A stretch of DNA of 18,877 nt. It comes from a virus. Its lineage: Duplodnaviria > Heunggongvirae > Uroviricota > Caudoviricetes. Made by a program: the position numbers. Positions 6,001 to 12,000 of the stretch are shown piece after piece (position 1 is the stretch's first letter; each line of letters begins with the position of its first letter). The stretch lies in the IMG/VR virus record IMGVR_UViG_2778261686_000011. One strand, given 5' to 3'.

Positions 6001-9000
6001 AATAGTCAGGCGACCACCGCGATTGACATACATCGGCGTTTCGGTGGTGTCTTCTTCGGAAATTTTCCCGCGGTTAGTCGGGCGAACATATGAGAGTTTG
6101 TGTTTGATTTTCACACGGTTCTCATCAAACGGTTCGATTTCCAGGTTGAGCGAGACCTTACCTTTGGTTTTCGTGTTCATCACACCGGAAGCGACTTCAC
6201 TGAGAACTGCGCCGATTTTGGTTTCAAATACGCCGCCGTCCAGCTCCCCGATAAATGCCTGCACATCAGTACTGCGTTCGCTAGCCATTTTGCTGCTCCT
6301 CATCATATCGACCCTGCAAGGTCGGTTGGTTTCTCCACAAAACAGAGAAGAACACCTGCGGTGGCAGCCGCCCGGGTGGATTGGGTTATGAGCCCGTCGT
6401 CCGGTGATGCTCTTCTCTGTTTTGTAAAAAGAGCGGTACCAGCCGGAAGCAAGTGTACAAACTGGTACCGCCAAAGCAGTGGCTGTTGTGGTGGGGTTGT
6501 CACTTAAGCGTATGGTCAACCTGACAACCCGGTGCCACTAATGGGGTAAGGATAACCCCGCCATACTTACCGCCGCGCCATTTCGCGGATTACCACAACG
6601 CTGAGAGCACTTAGCCAGTTATGGCACCACACTTTGTCGCGGCTCCATAAATGCCCTCATCGTTGCACCCTGGTCTCTTCCCAGGCGTCAAACCGAATCG
6701 CCACGCTGGTTAGGCGTCTTATCAGCATCATCATTGACTTGCACATTCCGGCTACCTGGTTTGTTTGCCCGAGCAAGGAGTGGATTGTCCCCTTTAACGT
6801 CCCCAGACCGCTAACGACGCATGTGCCATACGCCGTGTTACAACCAAATTTTGTTAGTACCTTGTTTGTAGGTCTGGAAAGAAAGATAAAATGAAGTTGC
6901 GCATTATGCAAGTGTTTTTATTGCGAGATATGCAATTTGGTGGGTAATGAAAAGCCACCTTCTGGTGGCTAATTGATGTTGAGGTAGGGGGTTAATTGTG
7001 TCGCTTAAGGGTTTGTGACTGACTGATTAAGACCTTTCCAAAGACCATAAACCGGTGTTCGTTTTCGCTGGTAATTCCCCATTCGCGGTAAATCTGATTA
7101 TCAGAAATTACCAGCAGTTTATCAGGTATCATTTGCAGTCGTTTGACGTAAATTTTATCATCAAAACCAAATACATATATACCATCTCCATCAAACTGAT
7201 TGATACTGATATCAACGAAGATGAGATCTCCTGGCTCAATGGTTGGACACATACTGTCCCCACGAACGTTGATAACTTTAATGTGATTTGCTGGTCGTCC
7301 ACCAAACATCGATACAGCATTATCAGTTCTGTATTCAATGGCATGAATCACATCAATGACATCACCGCCCTGGATAAGGCCATTTCCCGCACTGGCACTG
7401 ACATCCAGCATTTCAATACGGAATACATCCTTCACCTGCGCAACATCCTCACTAATACTGTTTTTACATACAGTATTACTTTTGAGGTCTGAGGTAAAGA
7501 GATCAGCAATATCAACACCTAAGCTCCTGGCAATATTACTCAGGGCTTGTTCAGTGAATTGTTTCTGCTTACCTGTTTCGAGGCGCGAGATATTCGCCGC
7601 ATCCACTCCTATTGCTTCAGCGAGATCGGCGATTTTCATGTTCTTCGCCTGGCGAAGTTGTCTGACTCGATTTCCTATGTTCATGCGTTTATTACATTTC
7701 TTTATTGCGCGTTAAGCAAATCAACTTGCGCAAAATATTTGCGTGAAATAATATGCTCATCACGCAATATGTGGAGGTTATATGCAATCACCATTACGGA
7801 ATGTGCGTAAGGCGCACGGATTTACTTTGCAGCATGTTGCTGCGGGCGTTCAGGTCAATCCAGCGACGCTGAGTCGTATTGAAAGACTGGAACAAATTCC
7901 ATCTATCGATCTTGCAGAACGTCTGGCCAATTTTTTTAAGGGTGAAATCAGCGAAATGCAGATTCTTTATCCGGCACGTTTTCAATCTAGCCAAAACCAG
8001 AATGGGTTTAAACCACAGGAACAGGAGGTAAGCCGTGGGTAAGCATCACTGGAAAGTGGAAAAACAACCTGAGTGGTACGTGAAAGCTGTCAGAAAAACT
8101 ATCGCGGCATTGCCTGGGGGTTACGCTGAAGCTGCTAACTGGCTGGATGTAACAGAGAACGCTTTATTCAACCGCCTTCGTGCAGATGGCGATCAGATTT
8201 TCCCGCTGGGATGGGCAATGGTTTTACAGCGCGCGGCTGGCACTCACTACATTGCGGATGCTGTCGCACAGTCTGCTGGTGGGGTGTTCGTATCGCTTCC
8301 TGAAATTGAGGAAGTAGAGAACGCCGATATAAACCAGCGCCTGCTGGAAGTCATCGAACAGATCGGGAATTACTCAAAGCAGATTCGTTCGGCAATCGAA
8401 GATGGGGTCGTGGAGCCACACGAGCAGACAGCAATTAATGATGAGTTGTATCTGTCAATTTCGAAGCTCCAGGAGCATGCAGCACTGGTCTACAAAATCT
8501 TCTGCGCTCCAGAAAAGAGTGACGCCCGCGAGTGTGCAGCTCCGGGCGTCGTGGCGTTTTGTGTCTGTGGAGAAACTAACGCATGAACAGTTTAACGGCA
8601 AATAACCGTTTGTCGCAACAGCTGGTGGTCAGTGTCGCTGAACACCTGTTGTTACGGCATGAATGCAGATTACCAGATCACCTGGCTGTAAGTAACCACA
8701 GAGAACTTTACCTGACTGTGGGGGGCGAGTTGTGCAGGAACTTAACCGCTGGTTTCGTGACGGAAGAGGGCTTTATGTCCATGTTATTCGTTGGGAGCCA
8801 GAAACACAGCGCGTTATCTATCTTCGCAAAGACTACCCGCATGAGTGCTTTAGTCCTTTGTGGAAATTCAGGCGTGATTTTGTTGAGTGTGAAGGACCAC
8901 CAGCACATTGATTCTGCCATTCCGGGACGTTACACTGTTCAGGCACCTTATAAAACGGGTGCCGGGCGTGGAAACCCGGAATTCACCAAAGCGCACAACC

Positions 9001-12000
9001 GCGCTCTTGCGGTTTTTTTGTGTCATGAGCAGCATTACGCCCAAATTATGGTGGGGCGTGCAGGGCCAACTTCGGTTGGGCCGGGTTCTTTGGTGACCGG
9101 TATTTCCACCCCTGTACGTCTCACCACCAATAAGGTCGTGGAAAGCCTTGGTGGTGAGTTATTAAAAATCACCAAAGAGGCTGCCATCATGGCTACGATC
9201 CCAACCCTCACTCAACCTGAAATTGCCATCGTTGATGGTCAGGCTGTTACTTCATCCCTGGCTGTTGCCAACTTCTTCTCCAAACGTCATGACGATGTAC
9301 TGAAAAAGATCCGCACGCTTGAATGCTCAGCATCATTCACTGCCCGCAATTTTTCGGTGAGTGATTACACTGATTGCACAGGTCGCAAACTACCTTGCTA
9401 TCAAATAACCCGCGACGGCTTTGCGTTTCTTGCTATGGGTTTCACGGGTAAACGTGCTGCCCAGTTCAAAGAGGCATATATCAATGCCTTTAACCAGATG
9501 GAGAAACAGCTTTCAAAACCCCCTGTACCGAGCGACGTTGCACATAACGCCAGCGTTCTCTATTCCTACATTTCATCAATTCATCAGGTCTGGCTGCAGC
9601 AGCTTTATCCTATGTTGGCAAAAGCCGAATCTCCGCTGGCTGTTAGCTTGTATGACTATATTAATGATGCTTCGGCGCTGGCCTGCCTCATAAATTTGTC
9701 GCTGAACCCTTCAGAGGTAAGGGGGCGCAAATGATCCGGAATATTTTCAAACGGTTTACCAATCAGACTTTCCGTTGTCCTCGTCCGGGTCAGTGGTACA
9801 CCACACCTGCAGGGCATGTTCTACGTGTTAGCCTGGTTGACCGTGAATGTCAGAAGGTGATTTGTGAACCGCTGGGCCGTAATTACCGCGTCAGTATGCC
9901 GCTTATAGCCTTTCGCTCCGGAAAAAACATGAAGCATCTCGGAGGTGCAGCATGAGTATGGAGCTGATGGTTAAAGCGATGAAAATTCGAGTGGGTAATC
10001 CATTGCGAAAACTGGTTCTGATCAAGCTGGCTGATAATGCCAGCGATCAGGGTGAGTGCTGGCCCAGCTACCAGCATATTGCTGACCAGTGCGAGATTAG
10101 CAAACGTTCTGTGATGAATCATATTGCGGCCCTTTGTGAGTCCGGGCTGGTAAAAAAAGTCACCCGGAAAGGTGAAAAAGGTAACTCAAGTAATATCTAT
10201 CTCCTTCATCTGGATGGTGCAGGAGATTCACTAGGGGGTAGTGCAAATAATTCACTATCTGGTGCAGCAAATTCACCAGGTAGTGCAGGAGTTGCACCAG
10301 GGGGTAGTGCAGGAGATTCACCCAGAACCAGTCACTCTTTTGAACCAGTCAAAGAACCAGTCAATGAACCAATAGCTGTTGGTGCATCTGCTGATGAGTC
10401 TGTGCGAGTTCGTTCAAACCGACCGGAATACTCTCCGGAGTTTGAGCAGGCATGGCTGGCATATCCCAAACGTGCTGGTGGCAATTCAAAATCTGCAGCC
10501 TTCAAAGCCTGGAAAGCCCGTTTGAATGAGGGGATAAACCCCGAAACCATGCTGGAAGGTGTGAAACGCTATGCGGGCTGGGTATCTGCGATGGGTAACA
10601 GCGGAACACAATTTGTGAAACAGGCTGTCACGTTCTTTGGTCCGGATCGTCATTTCGAAGAATCCTGGGAAGTTCCTGCGGTATCTGCAGCCAGACGTGA
10701 GGACCCGTACTTCAAAGCCAGTTACGACAACGTGGACTACAGCCAGATCCCGGCAGGATTCAGGGGGTGATCATGAGTCTTTTGAATGAAGTTCAGAAAT
10801 TCATTGAAGCCCATCCGGGGTGTACTTCCGGAGACATTGCGGATGCTTTTGCAGGTTACTCACGGCAGCGCGTTCTGCAGTCAGCAAGCAAGTTACGTCA
10901 GAGTGGGCGTGTGGCTCACCGTTGTGAAGGAGATACACGCAGACATTTCCCACGCCTGAATGAGAGAGCGCAGGAGCCGGAACCACAACCAGTTCGTGAA
11001 ACCAGACCTGTGCGCAATTTCTATGTCGGCACTAACGACCCGCGGGTGATTTTGTGCCTGACCCGCCAGGCGGAAGAACTGGAGTCCAGGGGCTTATACC
11101 GTCGTGCTGCAACGGTGTGGATGGCGGCATTCCGTGAAAGCCACTCCCAGCCAGAACGAAATAATTTTCTGGCGCGTCGTGAACGGTGTTTACGGAAAAG
11201 CAATAAGCGGGCTGCATCAGGTGAAGAGTGGTATCTGTCAGGGAATTACGTGGGGGCTTAATGAGTAATAAATATTGCCAGGCGTTGGTGGAACTGCGGA
11301 ACAAACCAGCCCATGAACTGAAGGAAGTGGGCGATCAGTGGCGCACGCCGGATAACATTTTCTGGGGAATTAACACCCTGTTTGGTCCGTTTGTTCTGGA
11401 TCTGTTCACTGACGGTGATAACGCCAAATGTGCCGCGTATTACACGGCGGAAGACAACGCGCTGGCACATGACTGGTCAGAACGTCTTGCGGAGCTTAAA
11501 GGTGCTGCCTTTGGTAATCCCCCATACAGCCGCGCCAGTCAGCATGAGGGGCAATACATCACCGGCATGCGTTACATCATGAAGCATGCCAGTGCCATGC
11601 GTGATAAAGGCGGTCGCTATGTTTTCCTGATCAAAGCTGCCACCAGCGAAGTGTGGTGGCCGGAAGATGCAGATCATATTGCTTTTATTCGCGGGCGTAT
11701 TGGTTTTGAACTGCCTGCCTGGTTTATCCCGAAGGATGAGAAGCAGGTGCCGACAGGCGCTTTCTTCGCTGGTGCTATTGCTGTTTTCGACAAGACCTGG
11801 AAGGGACCGGCAATCAGCTACATCGGGCGCGATGAACTTGAGGCATGTGGTGAGGCCTTTCTGGCGCAGGTTCGCCAGCAGGCGGAAAAACTGGTCAGGG
11901 AGATGGCTGCATGACGACGTTAACTCAATGCCAGCAGCAGGTGCTGGATATGCTGATTTCTTACCAGAAAGAACGTGGCTTCCCGCCAACCAATCAGGAG

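What the first reader, a model, noticed from the sequence alone, without database searches (positions are those of the whole stretch)
8583..9188. Ambiguous 600-bp stretch between the CII-like and Rha genes: coupled ATG and a hidden small ORF in another frame
An ATG at 8583 overlaps the CII-like stop (ATGA) and is open all the way into the Rha domain, predicting a 383-aa protein with an odd N-terminal half. A different frame contains a well-formed 59-aa GTG-initiated ORF (8732-8911) with aromatic-rich, protein-like composition. The two models are mutually exclusive unless the genes overlap, so either an unannotated small protein or an unusual Rha N-terminal domain is present.
Basis: seen in the sequence. 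Interest (0 to 1): 0.55.

Follow-up and report, generated by a model that had tools for sequence, protein, structure and literature searches.

The report
Antisense-RNA switch inside overlapping phage genes

Summary
Both ORFs exist exactly as described: ATG 8583 overlaps the CII/YmfL stop (ATGA) and is open for 383 codons to 9734, and a GTG ORF of 59 codons lies at 8732-8911.

It holds two Rfam RNA genes, isrK (8943-9019, with promoter and terminator) and the C4 antisense RNA (9044-9131). Downstream lie the C4 target boxes a2 and b2; b2 covers the Shine-Dalgarno of a nested Rha start at 9189.

This is the lambdoid counterpart of the phage P4 immunity region (seqA, CI RNA, nested eta/kil genes), of P1 c4-icd-ant and of Gifsy-1 isrK-orf45-anrP.

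- **59-aa ORF:** a real DUF4222 gene with a coding substitution pattern.
- **Long frame, 5' part:** a YmfM-like coding leader that overlaps DUF4222. Synonymous sites in DUF4222 avoid creating stops in it.
- **Long frame, RNA part:** stop-free across the RNA genes in 46 of 59 distinct modules and usually ATGA-coupled to the upstream gene, as P4 eta is.

The genes therefore overlap. The RNA switch is a new member of a known kind. The DUF4222/YmfM overlap looks undescribed and bears on the E. coli e14 "ymfM" division-inhibitor assignment.

The parts
8035..8586 (+). CII-like / YmfL regulator gene. Its stop overlaps the long-ORF start as ATGA. Context for the finding.
   Evidence: ORF; Pfam Phage_CP76, 54.8 bits; phrog_101, CII-like activator; RefSeq name 'YmfL family'.
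8583..9734 (+). Long 383-codon frame, read here as an Eta-like read-through ORF. It consists of a YmfM-like leader, the translation of the isrK/C4 module (Pfam 'Ash') and the Rha domain. RefSeq and GenBank annotate it as a single 'Rha family' protein.
   Evidence: annotation. (Phage_ASH aa 117-213, Phage_pRha aa 223-308). (frame conserved in nine relatives). (46 of 59 modules stop-free in this frame; ATGA coupling to varied upstream genes). (P4 eta has the same layout).
8583..8731 (+). Unique N-terminal segment of the YmfM-like leader, a weakly constrained coding sequence. It is the homologue of the 5' part of E. coli e14 ymfM.
   Evidence: e14 ymfM starts MNSLT and is ATGA-coupled to ymfL. 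(family alignment). (substitution rates 0.090/0.050/0.133 in close pairs; stop-free in 29 of 29 loci against 0 of 29 for each other frame).
8732..8911 (+). DUF4222 small-protein gene (59 aa, GTG start). It lies inside the long frame, offset by one base; the long frame is the +1 frame relative to it. Its TGA stop lies inside the -35 box of the isrK promoter.
   Evidence: PF13973, 51.1 bits. (phrog_1343, E 1e-36). (annotated as a CDS in relatives). (homologues down to 63% identity, 21 invariant residues). (codon-position rates 0.19/0.14/0.45).
8908..8936 (+). Candidate sigma-70 promoter of the isrK-like RNA, internal to the long ORF: -35 TTGATT 8908-8913, a 17-nt spacer, and -10 TACACT 8931-8936, with the start near 8943. 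It corresponds to P4 PLE.
   Evidence: Sequence. TTGAnn and TAnAnT are conserved at fixed positions in 28 distinct class-A modules while the spacers diverge. Activity was not tested.
8943..9019 (+). isrK-type sRNA, the equivalent of P4 seqA and the P1 a1/b1 leader. It has two hairpins, box a1 (GTGGAAA 8968-8974, in the loop of hairpin 2), box b1 (TCACCAAAG 8983-8991) and an intrinsic terminator (8997-9014 plus a T run to 9019).
   Evidence: RF01394, 67.9 bits against a gathering score of 50. (terminator). (a1 and b1 complementary to C4 a' and b').
9044..9131 (+). C4-type antisense RNA, the equivalent of P4 CI RNA and Gifsy-1 STnc1160/orf45. Its b' loop is TCTTTGGTGA 9087-9096 and its a' box is TTTCCAC 9103-9109. 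The conserved 5' AUG at 9048 is in frame with the long ORF and with Rha.
   Evidence: RF01695, 83.6 bits against a gathering score of 45. (13 of 27 stem pairs show compensatory changes). (a' and b' covary with their targets). (the AUG frame is open through C4 in nearly all genuine C4 loci, with one early stop, in L054).
9138..9180 (+). Target boxes in the Rha leader: a2 GTGGAAA 9138-9144 and b2 TCACCAAAGA 9169-9178. Box b2 overlaps the Shine-Dalgarno AAGAGG at 9175-9180.
   Evidence: coordinates; b' loop against leader -18.7 kcal/mol, against -11.4 +/- 2.3 for shuffles, with 4 of 1000 shuffles as good. (exact complements at the same positions in about 15 a-type and about 17 b-type specificity variants).
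9189..9734 (+). Nested Rha gene (181 aa), with an ATG 8 nt after the Shine-Dalgarno. It is the counterpart of P4 kil and is the product placed under C4 control.
   Evidence: phrog_821 positions 144-324 and phrog_518 'Rha-like'. (Phage_pRha). (the ATG and Shine-Dalgarno are conserved; the motif EAAIMAT is shared with the P4 kil start).

Best explanation
The stretch holds two things in series, both lying inside one conserved long reading frame.

(1) 8583-8911 is a dual-coding segment. A YmfM-like leader ORF starts at the ATGA overlap with the CII/YmfL gene. A DUF4222 small-protein gene (8732-8911) is embedded in it; the leader ORF is the +1 frame relative to DUF4222.

(2) 8908-9188 is a P4/P1-type antisense-RNA switch. 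An internal promoter makes an isrK/seqA-like RNA that carries boxes a1 and b1 and ends at its own terminator. Read-through transcripts yield the C4/CI-like RNA. Its a' and b' boxes pair with a2 and b2 in the leader of the nested Rha gene. Box b2 covers the Rha Shine-Dalgarno, so Rha translation from ATG 9189 is blocked. By the P1/P4 precedent, transcription then stops prematurely. The isrK RNA carries the same boxes and can titrate C4, which is the activating role shown for IsrK in Gifsy-1.

Inferred from P4 eta: when the early rightward operon is transcribed, ribosomes pass from the CII/YmfL gene into the long frame and translate straight through the promoter, terminator, C4 and target boxes. 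These transcripts would thereby escape both the isrK terminator and C4 control. They would give the 383-aa Eta-like form of Rha and let transcription reach the replication and Q genes.

Shown here: the RNA genes, the box complementarity and covariation, the coding status of DUF4222, and selection that keeps the long frame open. Inferred: promoter activity, RNA processing, translational block, termination, and actual translation of the long frame.
For: - RNA genes: isrK scores 67.9 bits (gathering score 50) and C4 scores 83.6 bits (gathering score 45) at 8943-9019 and 9044-9131. Thirteen of 27 C4 stem pairs show compensatory double changes in 21 variants.
- Specificity boxes: about 15 different a' heptamers each have exact 7-nt complements at fixed places upstream (a1) and downstream (a2). 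About 17 b' loop variants have 9-10-nt complements at b1 and at b2 over the Shine-Dalgarno (window coordinates).
- Promoter: the hexamers are conserved while the spacers diverge. A terminator is found.
- Homology to P4: P4 CI is a C4 hit and seqA an isrK hit. P4 eta (199 aa) spans them, matches Pfam Phage_ASH like window aa 117-213, and ends with kil, whose start (QEAAIMATT) aligns with the Rha start (KEAAIMATI).
- P4 mechanism: summarised in PMC10111431. Gifsy-1 isrK-orf45-anrP, including demonstrated translation of the ORF that overlaps the C4-like RNA: PMC4825925. IsrK/C4 equated with seqA/CI and noted in lambdoid prophages: PMC3632133.
- Long frame: stop-free over -156..+141 in 46 of 59 distinct modules. 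The other two frames carry about 40 polymorphic stop positions each, and 12 Gifsy-like modules carry 2-5 stops. Its start is usually an ATG overlapping the stop of whichever gene lies upstream. It is kept in nine relatives despite gaps not divisible by three.
- DUF4222: Pfam and PHROG matches and codon-position rates of 0.19/0.14/0.45.
- Overlap: the +1 frame is stop-free up to about +157 in the 30 intact diverged sequences examined (29 genome loci plus the window), against about 5% expected from synonymous reshuffling. Val/Leu codons end in a purine in 0 of 97 cases where that would create a stop, against 42 of 80 elsewhere (p about 1e-18, not corrected for phylogeny).
- Operon context: CI, Cro, CII, this locus, an O-like replication protein and a Q-like antiterminator, in a chain of overlapping ORFs.
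Against: - There are no expression data for this locus. Promoter activity, RNA 5'/3' ends, RNase P processing and Rho-dependent termination are all inferred.
- Within 8931-9188 the amino-acid sequence of the long frame is dictated by RNA constraints. Pfam 'Ash' similarity there therefore says nothing about a protein function.
- In the DUF4222 overlap the long frame's second codon position is the most variable (0.12/0.47/0.18). Only openness is selected there, not its protein sequence.
- Twelve more distant (Gifsy-like) modules lack the long frame, so it is not essential to the RNA switch itself.
- The class-A modules are related by descent and the counts are not phylogenetically corrected.
- The c4-a1b1 Rfam model scores below its gathering score here (22.6 against 46.7).
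- In most homologues the ymfM-type frame stops about 20 nt before the DUF4222 stop. Its fusion to the downstream frame in this phage lineage could be incidental.
Confidence: 0.75

Rival explanations
1. The 383-aa ORF is only an annotation artefact. On this view the functional units are DUF4222, the two RNAs and the 181-aa Rha. The long frame is open because the conserved RNA sequence happens to lack stops in that phase, and gene callers extend Rha upstream.
For: The 'Ash' portion coincides exactly with the isrK and C4 genes. Its sequence varies at the specificity boxes. Position 2 of the long frame is the most variable in the DUF4222 overlap. Gifsy-like modules have stops in this frame. [quoted passage not shown] PGAP annotates the same DNA inconsistently.
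Against: The distribution is bimodal: 0 stops in 46 modules, 1 stop in one module (L101) and 2-5 stops in the 12 Gifsy-like ones. The other two frames have about 40 polymorphic stop sites each. In-frame ATGs sit just upstream of the internal promoter and overlap the stop of unrelated upstream genes. Synonymous sites of DUF4222 avoid stops in this frame (0 of 97 against 42 of 80). The unique N-terminal segment has a coding-type pattern and is stop-free in 29 of 29 loci. In P4 the homologous eta frame is genetically shown to be translated (PMC10111431).
Confidence: 0.17
2. The 59-aa ORF is spurious, and only the long frame (the YmfM-like frame) is a real gene in 8732-8911, as in the E. coli K-12 annotation of e14, which lists ymfM and no DUF4222 gene.
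For: K-12 annotates only ymfM across the homologous DNA, and a paper attributes filamentation to it. The long frame is open in all homologues.
Against: Substitutions fall on the third position of the 59-aa frame (0.45, against 0.19 and 0.14). That position is the second position of the long frame. There are 21 invariant residues across sequences down to 63% identity. It has Pfam and PHROG families of its own. The start codon with a Shine-Dalgarno-like run is conserved.
Confidence: 0.04
3. The 383-aa product is a conventional multidomain Rha protein whose N-terminal half is a folded 'Ash' domain, and the RNA-family matches are incidental.
For: Pfam Phage_ASH and several PHROG profiles cover the region. 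Many phage records annotate it as one protein.
Against: Both RNA matches exceed curated thresholds. The stems covary. The loops covary with two target sites each. An internal promoter and an intrinsic terminator sit inside the supposed domain. P4 CI and seqA are experimentally established RNAs at the homologous positions.
Confidence: 0.04

Closest known systems
Satellite phage P4 immunity region: PLE, seqA, CI RNA, seqC, and the nested eta/kil genes (Forti et al. 1999, as summarised in PMC10111431; Barquist et al. 2013, PMC3632133)
   Same: The order of elements and the Rfam families are the same: isrK corresponds to seqA and C4 to CI. In both, a long ORF starts at the stop of the upstream gene, spans the internal promoter and both RNAs, matches Pfam Phage_ASH and ends in a nested gene with its own start. 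The start motif EAAIMAT is shared.
   Different: The nested cargo here is a 181-aa Rha-domain regulator, not the 65-aa Kil. The upstream partner is a CII/YmfL gene of a lambdoid early operon, not the P4 ORF88 (alpA-type) gene. The isrK-to-C4 spacer is 24 nt here against 107 nt in P4. The long frame here also carries a YmfM-like leader overlapped by a DUF4222 gene, which P4 lacks. The P4 functions, Rho-dependent timm and protection by eta translation, were not tested here.
Phage P1/P7 immI operon: c4 antisense RNA, icd, ant (Citron and Schuster 1990, cited from my own knowledge; Rfam RF01695 and RF03163)
   Same: A C4 RNA with a' and b' boxes complementary to upstream a1/b1 and downstream a2/b2, with b2 over the ribosome-binding site of the next gene, controlling an antirepressor-type gene. 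P1 and P7 c4 are detectable by DNA similarity.
   Different: In P1 the first controlled ORF is icd, which is translationally coupled to ant. I know of no description of a long ORF spanning c4 in P1. The window's a1/b1 region matches the isrK model rather than the c4-a1b1 model at threshold.
Salmonella Gifsy-1 isrK-orf45-anrP-isrJ locus (Hershko-Shalev et al. 2016, PMC4825925)
   Same: An isrK sRNA with its own promoter and a leaky terminator, a C4-like processed RNA overlapped by a translated ORF that starts at the conserved AUG, and then an antirepressor-like gene. The paper itself notes a Shigella dysenteriae variant in which orf45 is fused to the downstream gene, as it is here.
   Different: In Gifsy-1 orf45 is a separate 45-codon ORF whose stop overlaps the anrP start. 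The frame is closed upstream, which is class B. Here the same frame is continuous from 8583 to 9734. The Gifsy-1 locus is not in the immunity region, and its output is activation of the antQ operon.
E. coli K-12 e14 prophage ymfL-ymfM (cell-division inhibitor YmfM/SfiC; Ansari et al., bioRxiv 10.1101/2020.11.19.390815)
   Same: The same upstream gene (ymfL), the same ATGA-coupled start (MNSLT...), and the same embedded DUF4222 ORF in the other frame.
   Different: e14 ymfM ends at a stop about 20 nt before the DUF4222 stop and is followed by replication-type genes, with no isrK/C4 module. In the window that stop is absent and the frame runs on into the RNA module and Rha. The window's first 47 residues are too diverged to match the YmfM profile phrog_1170.

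Membership tests
Rfam RF01695 C4 antisense RNA | Covariance-model score at or above the gathering score over the full model | tested here: met
   83.6 bits against 45, model positions 1-87 of 87, at 9044-9131 +.
Rfam RF01695 C4 antisense RNA | Conserved secondary structure supported by compensatory changes | tested here: met
   Thirteen of 27 predicted pairs keep pairing through changes on both sides in 21 variants. The hairpin-2 stem was fixed by my search pattern and is uninformative.
Rfam RF01695 C4 antisense RNA | a' and b' boxes complementary to a2/b2 in the downstream mRNA, covering its ribosome-binding site | tested here: met
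   a' 9103-9109 pairs with a2 9138-9144. b' 9087-9096 pairs with b2 9169-9178, which overlaps the Shine-Dalgarno at 9175-9180. The boxes covary across about 15 (a) and about 17 (b) variants.
Rfam RF01695 C4 antisense RNA | Processed from a longer transcript (RNase P) and represses in trans | not testable with these tools
   Needs RNA end mapping and genetics.
Rfam RF01394 isrK (P4 seqA-type RNA) | Covariance-model score at or above the gathering score, ending in an intrinsic terminator | tested here: met
   67.9 bits against 50, at 8943-9019. Terminator hairpin 8997-9014 plus a T run.
Rfam RF03163 c4-a1b1 | Covariance-model score at or above the gathering score | tested here: not met
   22.6 bits against 46.7, at 8930-8982. 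P4's own seqA region also falls just short (44.1). The a1 and b1 boxes themselves are present.
Pfam PF13973 DUF4222 | HMM score above the gathering score | tested here: met
   51.1 bits against 27, aa 3-52 of the 59-aa ORF.
Pfam PF13973 DUF4222 | Evolves as a protein-coding sequence in this frame | tested here: met
   Codon-position differences of 0.19/0.14/0.45 over 31 sequences (30 distinct genome-locus sequences plus the window). There are 21 invariant residues.
Pfam PF09669 Phage_pRha | HMM score above the gathering score | tested here: met
   106.2 bits against 29.9, aa 223-308 of the long ORF, which is aa 21-106 of the nested 181-aa product.
Pfam PF10554 Phage_ASH (P4 Eta-type segment) | HMM score above the gathering score | tested here: met
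   57.2 bits against 26, aa 117-213, which is 8931-9221. P4 Eta scores 82.4 bits. The matched DNA is the isrK/C4 module, so the match reflects RNA-level homology.
P4 eta/kil nested-gene design | Long ORF starts upstream of the internal constitutive promoter and is translationally coupled to the preceding gene | tested here: met
   ATGA at 8583-8586. The internal promoter lies at 8908-8936. The same coupling to varied upstream genes is seen in other modules.
P4 eta/kil nested-gene design | Long ORF spans the seqA-like and CI-like RNAs, and a shorter product starts in frame downstream of CI with its own ribosome-binding site | tested here: met
   The nested start motif is shared with kil.
P4 eta/kil nested-gene design | Translation of the long ORF prevents termination, and the nested gene region holds a Rho-dependent terminator | not testable with these tools
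   Known for P4 only, via PMC10111431. The primary paper is not in the held library.
YmfM (phrog_1170; e14 cell-division inhibitor) | Full-length similarity to the about-112-aa family, ending near the DUF4222 stop | tested here: not met
   Only aa 48-98 match profile positions 58-108 (E 2e-10). The family's stop at +157 is missing, and the frame continues for a further 281 codons, to its stop at 9732-9734. The position, the coupling and the first residues (MNSLT) are shared.

The most novel reading that the evidence does not exclude
The segment 8583-8911 and its homologues across Enterobacteriaceae, including e14 ymfM of E. coli K-12, may be a true dual-coding region. A DUF4222 protein would be encoded inside a leader ORF that selection keeps open for the act of translation rather than for its own amino-acid sequence. 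That leader would carry ribosomes from the CII/YmfL gene onward and, in this phage lineage, straight through an RNA-immunity module. A corollary is that the filamentation (SfiC) phenotype assigned to 'ymfM' could belong partly or wholly to the unannotated embedded DUF4222 protein. The published construct contains the whole ORF and its native AAGGAG-TTG start, and no frame-specific controls are mentioned.
Probability: 0.4. Interest if true: 0.65.

Novelty: new member of a known kind. Interest (0 to 1): 0.45.

Why it matters
- **Annotation.** The identical DNA is annotated in RefSeq and GenBank as a single 383-aa 'Rha family' protein. Elsewhere it is annotated as 'peptidase', 'immunity region' or 'ash family protein'. 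The two regulatory RNAs are never annotated, and DUF4222 only sometimes. Pfam 'Ash' and several PHROG 'transcriptional regulator' families are largely translations of an RNA module. Anyone inferring function, or predicting a structure, from those families would be misled.
- **Biology.** The locus sits between the early promoter and the replication and Q-like genes. The RNA switch therefore probably gates both Rha and passage of early transcription. The about 15 a-type and about 17 b-type box variants form a ready-made catalogue of immunity specificities in lambdoid prophages, including Stx phages.
- **The overlap.** The DUF4222/YmfM overlap gives a clean, testable case of selection on synonymous sites to keep a second frame open. 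It also raises a concrete question about which product is the e14 SOS-inducible division inhibitor.

Tried and rejected
- Codon-position GC content of the competing frames within the window alone did not discriminate. I switched to comparative data.
- The generic promoter scan missed the isrK promoter because it scores 8 of 12 hexamer matches. It was recovered by conservation.
- I first assumed the long ORF was simply a gene-caller artefact over ncRNA. That was rejected, or at least demoted, after the stop-codon census and the ATGA-coupling survey and the P4 comparison.
- I tested whether the YmfM-type frame is merely open by chance over DUF4222. Synonymous reshuffling gives a probability of about 0.05 with E. 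coli codon usage and about 0.31 with the family's own, already biased, usage. The context-specific codon test settled it.
- I looked for the isrK/C4 module next to DUF4222 in other genera. Only one of the 32 genome loci has it (L131, Citrobacter braakii), and the e14-type loci lack it. The two parts are therefore separable mosaic modules.
- The primary P4 paper (PMC94026) is not in the held library. I relied on a secondary summary and marked what comes from memory.
- The a' box against the leader is not significant by duplex energy alone (97 of 1000 shuffles as good). The evidence for it is the covariation.
- Structure prediction and the representative-protein search were not used. The 'Ash' segment is RNA-constrained, so a fold would not be informative.

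Full report
**1. The observation**

Both ORFs are in the sequence exactly as stated. ORF 8583..9734 (+) is 383 codons with an ATG start. Its ATG overlaps the stop of the 183-codon ORF 8035..8586 as ATGA. ORF 8732..8911 (+) is 59 codons with a GTG start. The upstream ORF is CII-like (Pfam Phage_CP76; RefSeq name YmfL). The C-terminal part of the long ORF carries the Rha domain.

The window is a lambdoid early region. It runs as follows:
- CI-type S24 repressor, 6992-7684 on the minus strand
- Cro-like gene, 7782-8042
- CII/YmfL gene
- this locus
- a 74-aa ORF
- an O-like replication initiator, 9952-10770
- a Q-like antiterminator, 14463-15215

It is 99-100% identical to prophages in many E. coli genomes and to phages phiSTEC1575-Stx2k and mEp460. 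RefSeq and GenBank annotate the identical DNA as one 383-aa 'Rha family' protein.

**2.

Rfam at curated thresholds finds isrK at 8943-9019 (67.9 bits; gathering score 50). It finds the C4 antisense RNA at 9044-9131 (83.6 bits; gathering score 45), on the plus strand. The isrK match ends in a terminator-like hairpin at 8997-9014 followed by a T run.

Upstream lie TTGATT (8908-8913), 17 nt of spacer, and TACACT (8931-8936). In 28 distinct related modules these two hexamers are conserved at fixed positions while the spacer diverges. That pattern is expected of a real promoter. It would start transcription near 8943.

I scanned viral contigs for a C4 core pattern and obtained 59 distinct complete modules (34 distinct C4 sequences). 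In 21 C4 variants, 13 of the 27 stem pairs keep pairing through changes on both sides.

**3. The antisense logic is written in the sequence**

- The C4 b' loop (TCTTTGGTGA, 9087-9096) is complementary to b1 (8983-9991 is wrong; correctly 8983-8991) in the isrK RNA.
- The same loop is complementary to b2 (9169-9178), which overlaps the Shine-Dalgarno AAGAGG (9175-9180) of an in-frame ATG at 9189.
- The C4 a' box (TTTCCAC, 9103-9109) is complementary to a1 (8968-8974, in the loop of isrK hairpin 2) and to a2 (9138-9144).

Across 65 unique loci, about 15 different a' heptamers each have an exact 7-nt complement at the same two places. About 17 b' variants have 9-10-nt complements at b1 and b2.

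This is the P1/P7 c4 arrangement, and the covariation is strong evidence that it operates here. The Rha domain therefore has its own nested start at 9189, giving a 181-aa product placed under C4 control.

**4. Comparison with characterised systems**

*Phage P4.* Rfam places C4 on the CI RNA and isrK on seqA. The 199-codon eta ORF spans both and begins at the stop of the upstream ORF88. It matches Pfam Phage_ASH (82 bits), just as residues 117-213 of the window's long ORF do (57 bits). It ends with kil, whose start (QEAAIMATT) aligns with the window's Rha start (KEAAIMATI).

A published summary of the P4 work (PMC10111431) makes these points:
- The constitutive promoter is internal to eta.
- Its transcripts terminate early through the CI and seqA interactions.
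- Kil is a truncated Eta made after read-through.
- Full-length Eta is made only from an upstream promoter.
- Eta translation prevents termination.

*Earlier notice in lambdoid prophages.* Barquist et al. (PMC3632133) already equate IsrK/C4 with seqA/CI. They note such systems in lambdoid Salmonella prophages.

*Gifsy-1.* The ORF that overlaps the C4-like RNA (orf45) is translated and coupled to the antirepressor-like anrP. IsrK acts in trans as an activator. The authors note a Shigella variant in which orf45 is fused to the downstream gene (PMC4825925). That is the situation here: the conserved AUG at the 5' end of C4 (9048) is in frame with both the long ORF and Rha.

**5. Is the long frame an artefact?**

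I expected so, but the data argue otherwise.
- Over -156..+141 relative to the C4 AUG, 46 of 59 distinct modules have no stop in that frame. One (L101) has a single stop. Twelve more distant, Gifsy-like modules have 2-5 stops. The other two frames each show about 40 polymorphic stop positions.
- Where the upstream gene differs, the long frame begins with an ATG at -156 to -186, just upstream of the internal promoter. That ATG usually overlaps the stop of whichever gene precedes it.
- In nine relatives with the YmfL-DUF4222 context (74-92% nucleotide identity, many 1-, 2-, 4- and 5-nt gaps) the frame stays open for 834-1161 nt. The nested cargo differs among them: a 181-aa Rha or an unrelated ORF of about 76 aa.

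These counts are not phylogenetically corrected. Between 8931 and 9188 the 'protein' sequence is dictated by the RNAs. What is selected appears to be openness, meaning translation, as in P4 eta.

There is a functional rationale, which is inference. Early rightward transcripts must cross the isrK terminator and the C4 target region to reach the replication and Q-like genes. An unbroken chain of overlapping ORFs (8042/8035, 8586/8583, 9734/9731, 9955/9952) would keep ribosomes on them.

**6. The 59-aa ORF and its overlap with the long frame**

The 59-aa ORF matches Pfam DUF4222 (51 bits) and phrog_1343. It is annotated as a CDS in some relatives. A search of the large protein collection and a scan of species-representative genomes gave homologues in 32 loci from many enterobacterial genera, down to 61% identity.

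- **DUF4222 frame.** Pairwise differences by codon position are 0.19/0.14/0.45, a clear coding signature.
- **Long frame over the same DNA.** The values are 0.12/0.47/0.18, so its amino-acid sequence is unconstrained there.
- **Openness of the long frame.** It is nevertheless stop-free in the 30 intact diverged sequences examined (29 genome loci plus the window), up to a positionally conserved stop about 20 nt before the DUF4222 stop. Synonymous reshuffling predicts that with a probability of about 0.05.
- **Codon choice.** Val/Leu codons followed by an A-initial codon never end in a purine (0 of 97). Elsewhere 42 of 80 do (p about 1e-18, uncorrected).
- **Unique 5' segment (8583-8731 here).** It is stop-free in 29 of 29 loci, against 0 of 29 for each other frame. 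It shows a moderate coding pattern (0.090/0.050/0.133 in close pairs).

This frame is ymfM of the E. coli K-12 e14 prophage, which is ATGA-coupled to ymfL, 112 aa long and annotated as a cell-division inhibitor. In the window's lineage, and in a Citrobacter braakii prophage, the ymfM-type stop is absent. The frame then continues into the RNA module and Rha. The e14-type loci have no isrK/C4 module, so the two parts are separable mosaic units.

**7. Verdict**

However, the key content of the stretch, an isrK/C4 antisense switch with an internal promoter, a terminator and a nested Rha start, was missed.

The switch is a new member of a well-known kind (P4 CI/seqA/eta/kil, P1 c4, Gifsy-1 isrK). 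The DUF4222/YmfM dual-coding segment seems undescribed: full-text searches for DUF4222 gave only incidental mentions. It matters for the attribution of the e14 filamentation phenotype, because the published ymfM construct contains the embedded ORF and no frame-specific controls are mentioned.

| Claim | Confidence |
|---|---|
| The RNA switch | about 0.9 |
| The long frame is translated and selected | about 0.65 |
| The composite explanation | 0.75 |

Noticed in passing
L130 (E. coli K-12 NC_000913.3) 2823-3161, homologous to window 8583-8911: The K-12 gene ymfM (b1148, 'cell division inhibitor YmfM') contains an unannotated DUF4222 ORF in another frame, with its own AAGGAG Shine-Dalgarno and a TTG start. 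The DUF4222 frame, not the ymfM frame, carries the protein-level conservation. The published pBAD-ymfM construct would include both ORFs, and no frame-specific controls are mentioned.
   Followed up: partly
window 8931-9221; L163 (phage P4) 8168-8767, minus strand: Pfam PF10554 'Ash protein family' and PHROGs 821, 995, 6928 and 3960 ('transcriptional regulator/repressor') match the translation of the isrK/C4 RNA module. Their conservation is largely RNA-level, so functional labels derived from them are unreliable.
   Followed up: partly
window 9120-9128 and 9150-9158: The 3' strand of the C4 closing stem (CTCACCACC) has a perfect complement (GGTGGTGAG) between a2 and b2. It is conserved in most class-A modules. 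This suggests an alternative pairing like the structure A/B switch described for Gifsy-1 isrK-orf45.
   Followed up: no
window 9731-9955: The 74-aa ORF after Rha (phrog_1153, ATGA-coupled at both ends) shows weak similarity to the DUF4222 protein (BLASTP E 0.02; DUF4222 against phrog_1153 E 0.008). It may be a distant relative of the same small-protein fold.
   Followed up: partly
L002, L004 and L009 (E. coli O111 prophage, an Stx2c phage, phage Ayreon), downstream of their C4 copies: The same YmfL-DUF4222-isrK-C4 leader is joined in frame to a different nested cargo, an ORF of about 76 aa starting MAT(V/L)PAL..RLNDEDLH, instead of Rha. This is comparable in size to P4 Kil. The RNA module acts as a portable control cassette.
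   Followed up: no
window 8909-8911 and 8908-8913: The TGA stop of DUF4222 lies inside the -35 hexamer (TTGATT) of the isrK promoter. In unrelated upstream contexts a stop appears at the same position simply because TTGA is conserved.
   Followed up: yes
L143 (Phytobacter sp. V91) 1501-1680: This is the one DUF4222 homologue with a premature stop after six codons, while the overlapping ymfM-type frame remains open there. It is the only case among 32 loci where the two frames are decoupled.
   Followed up: no
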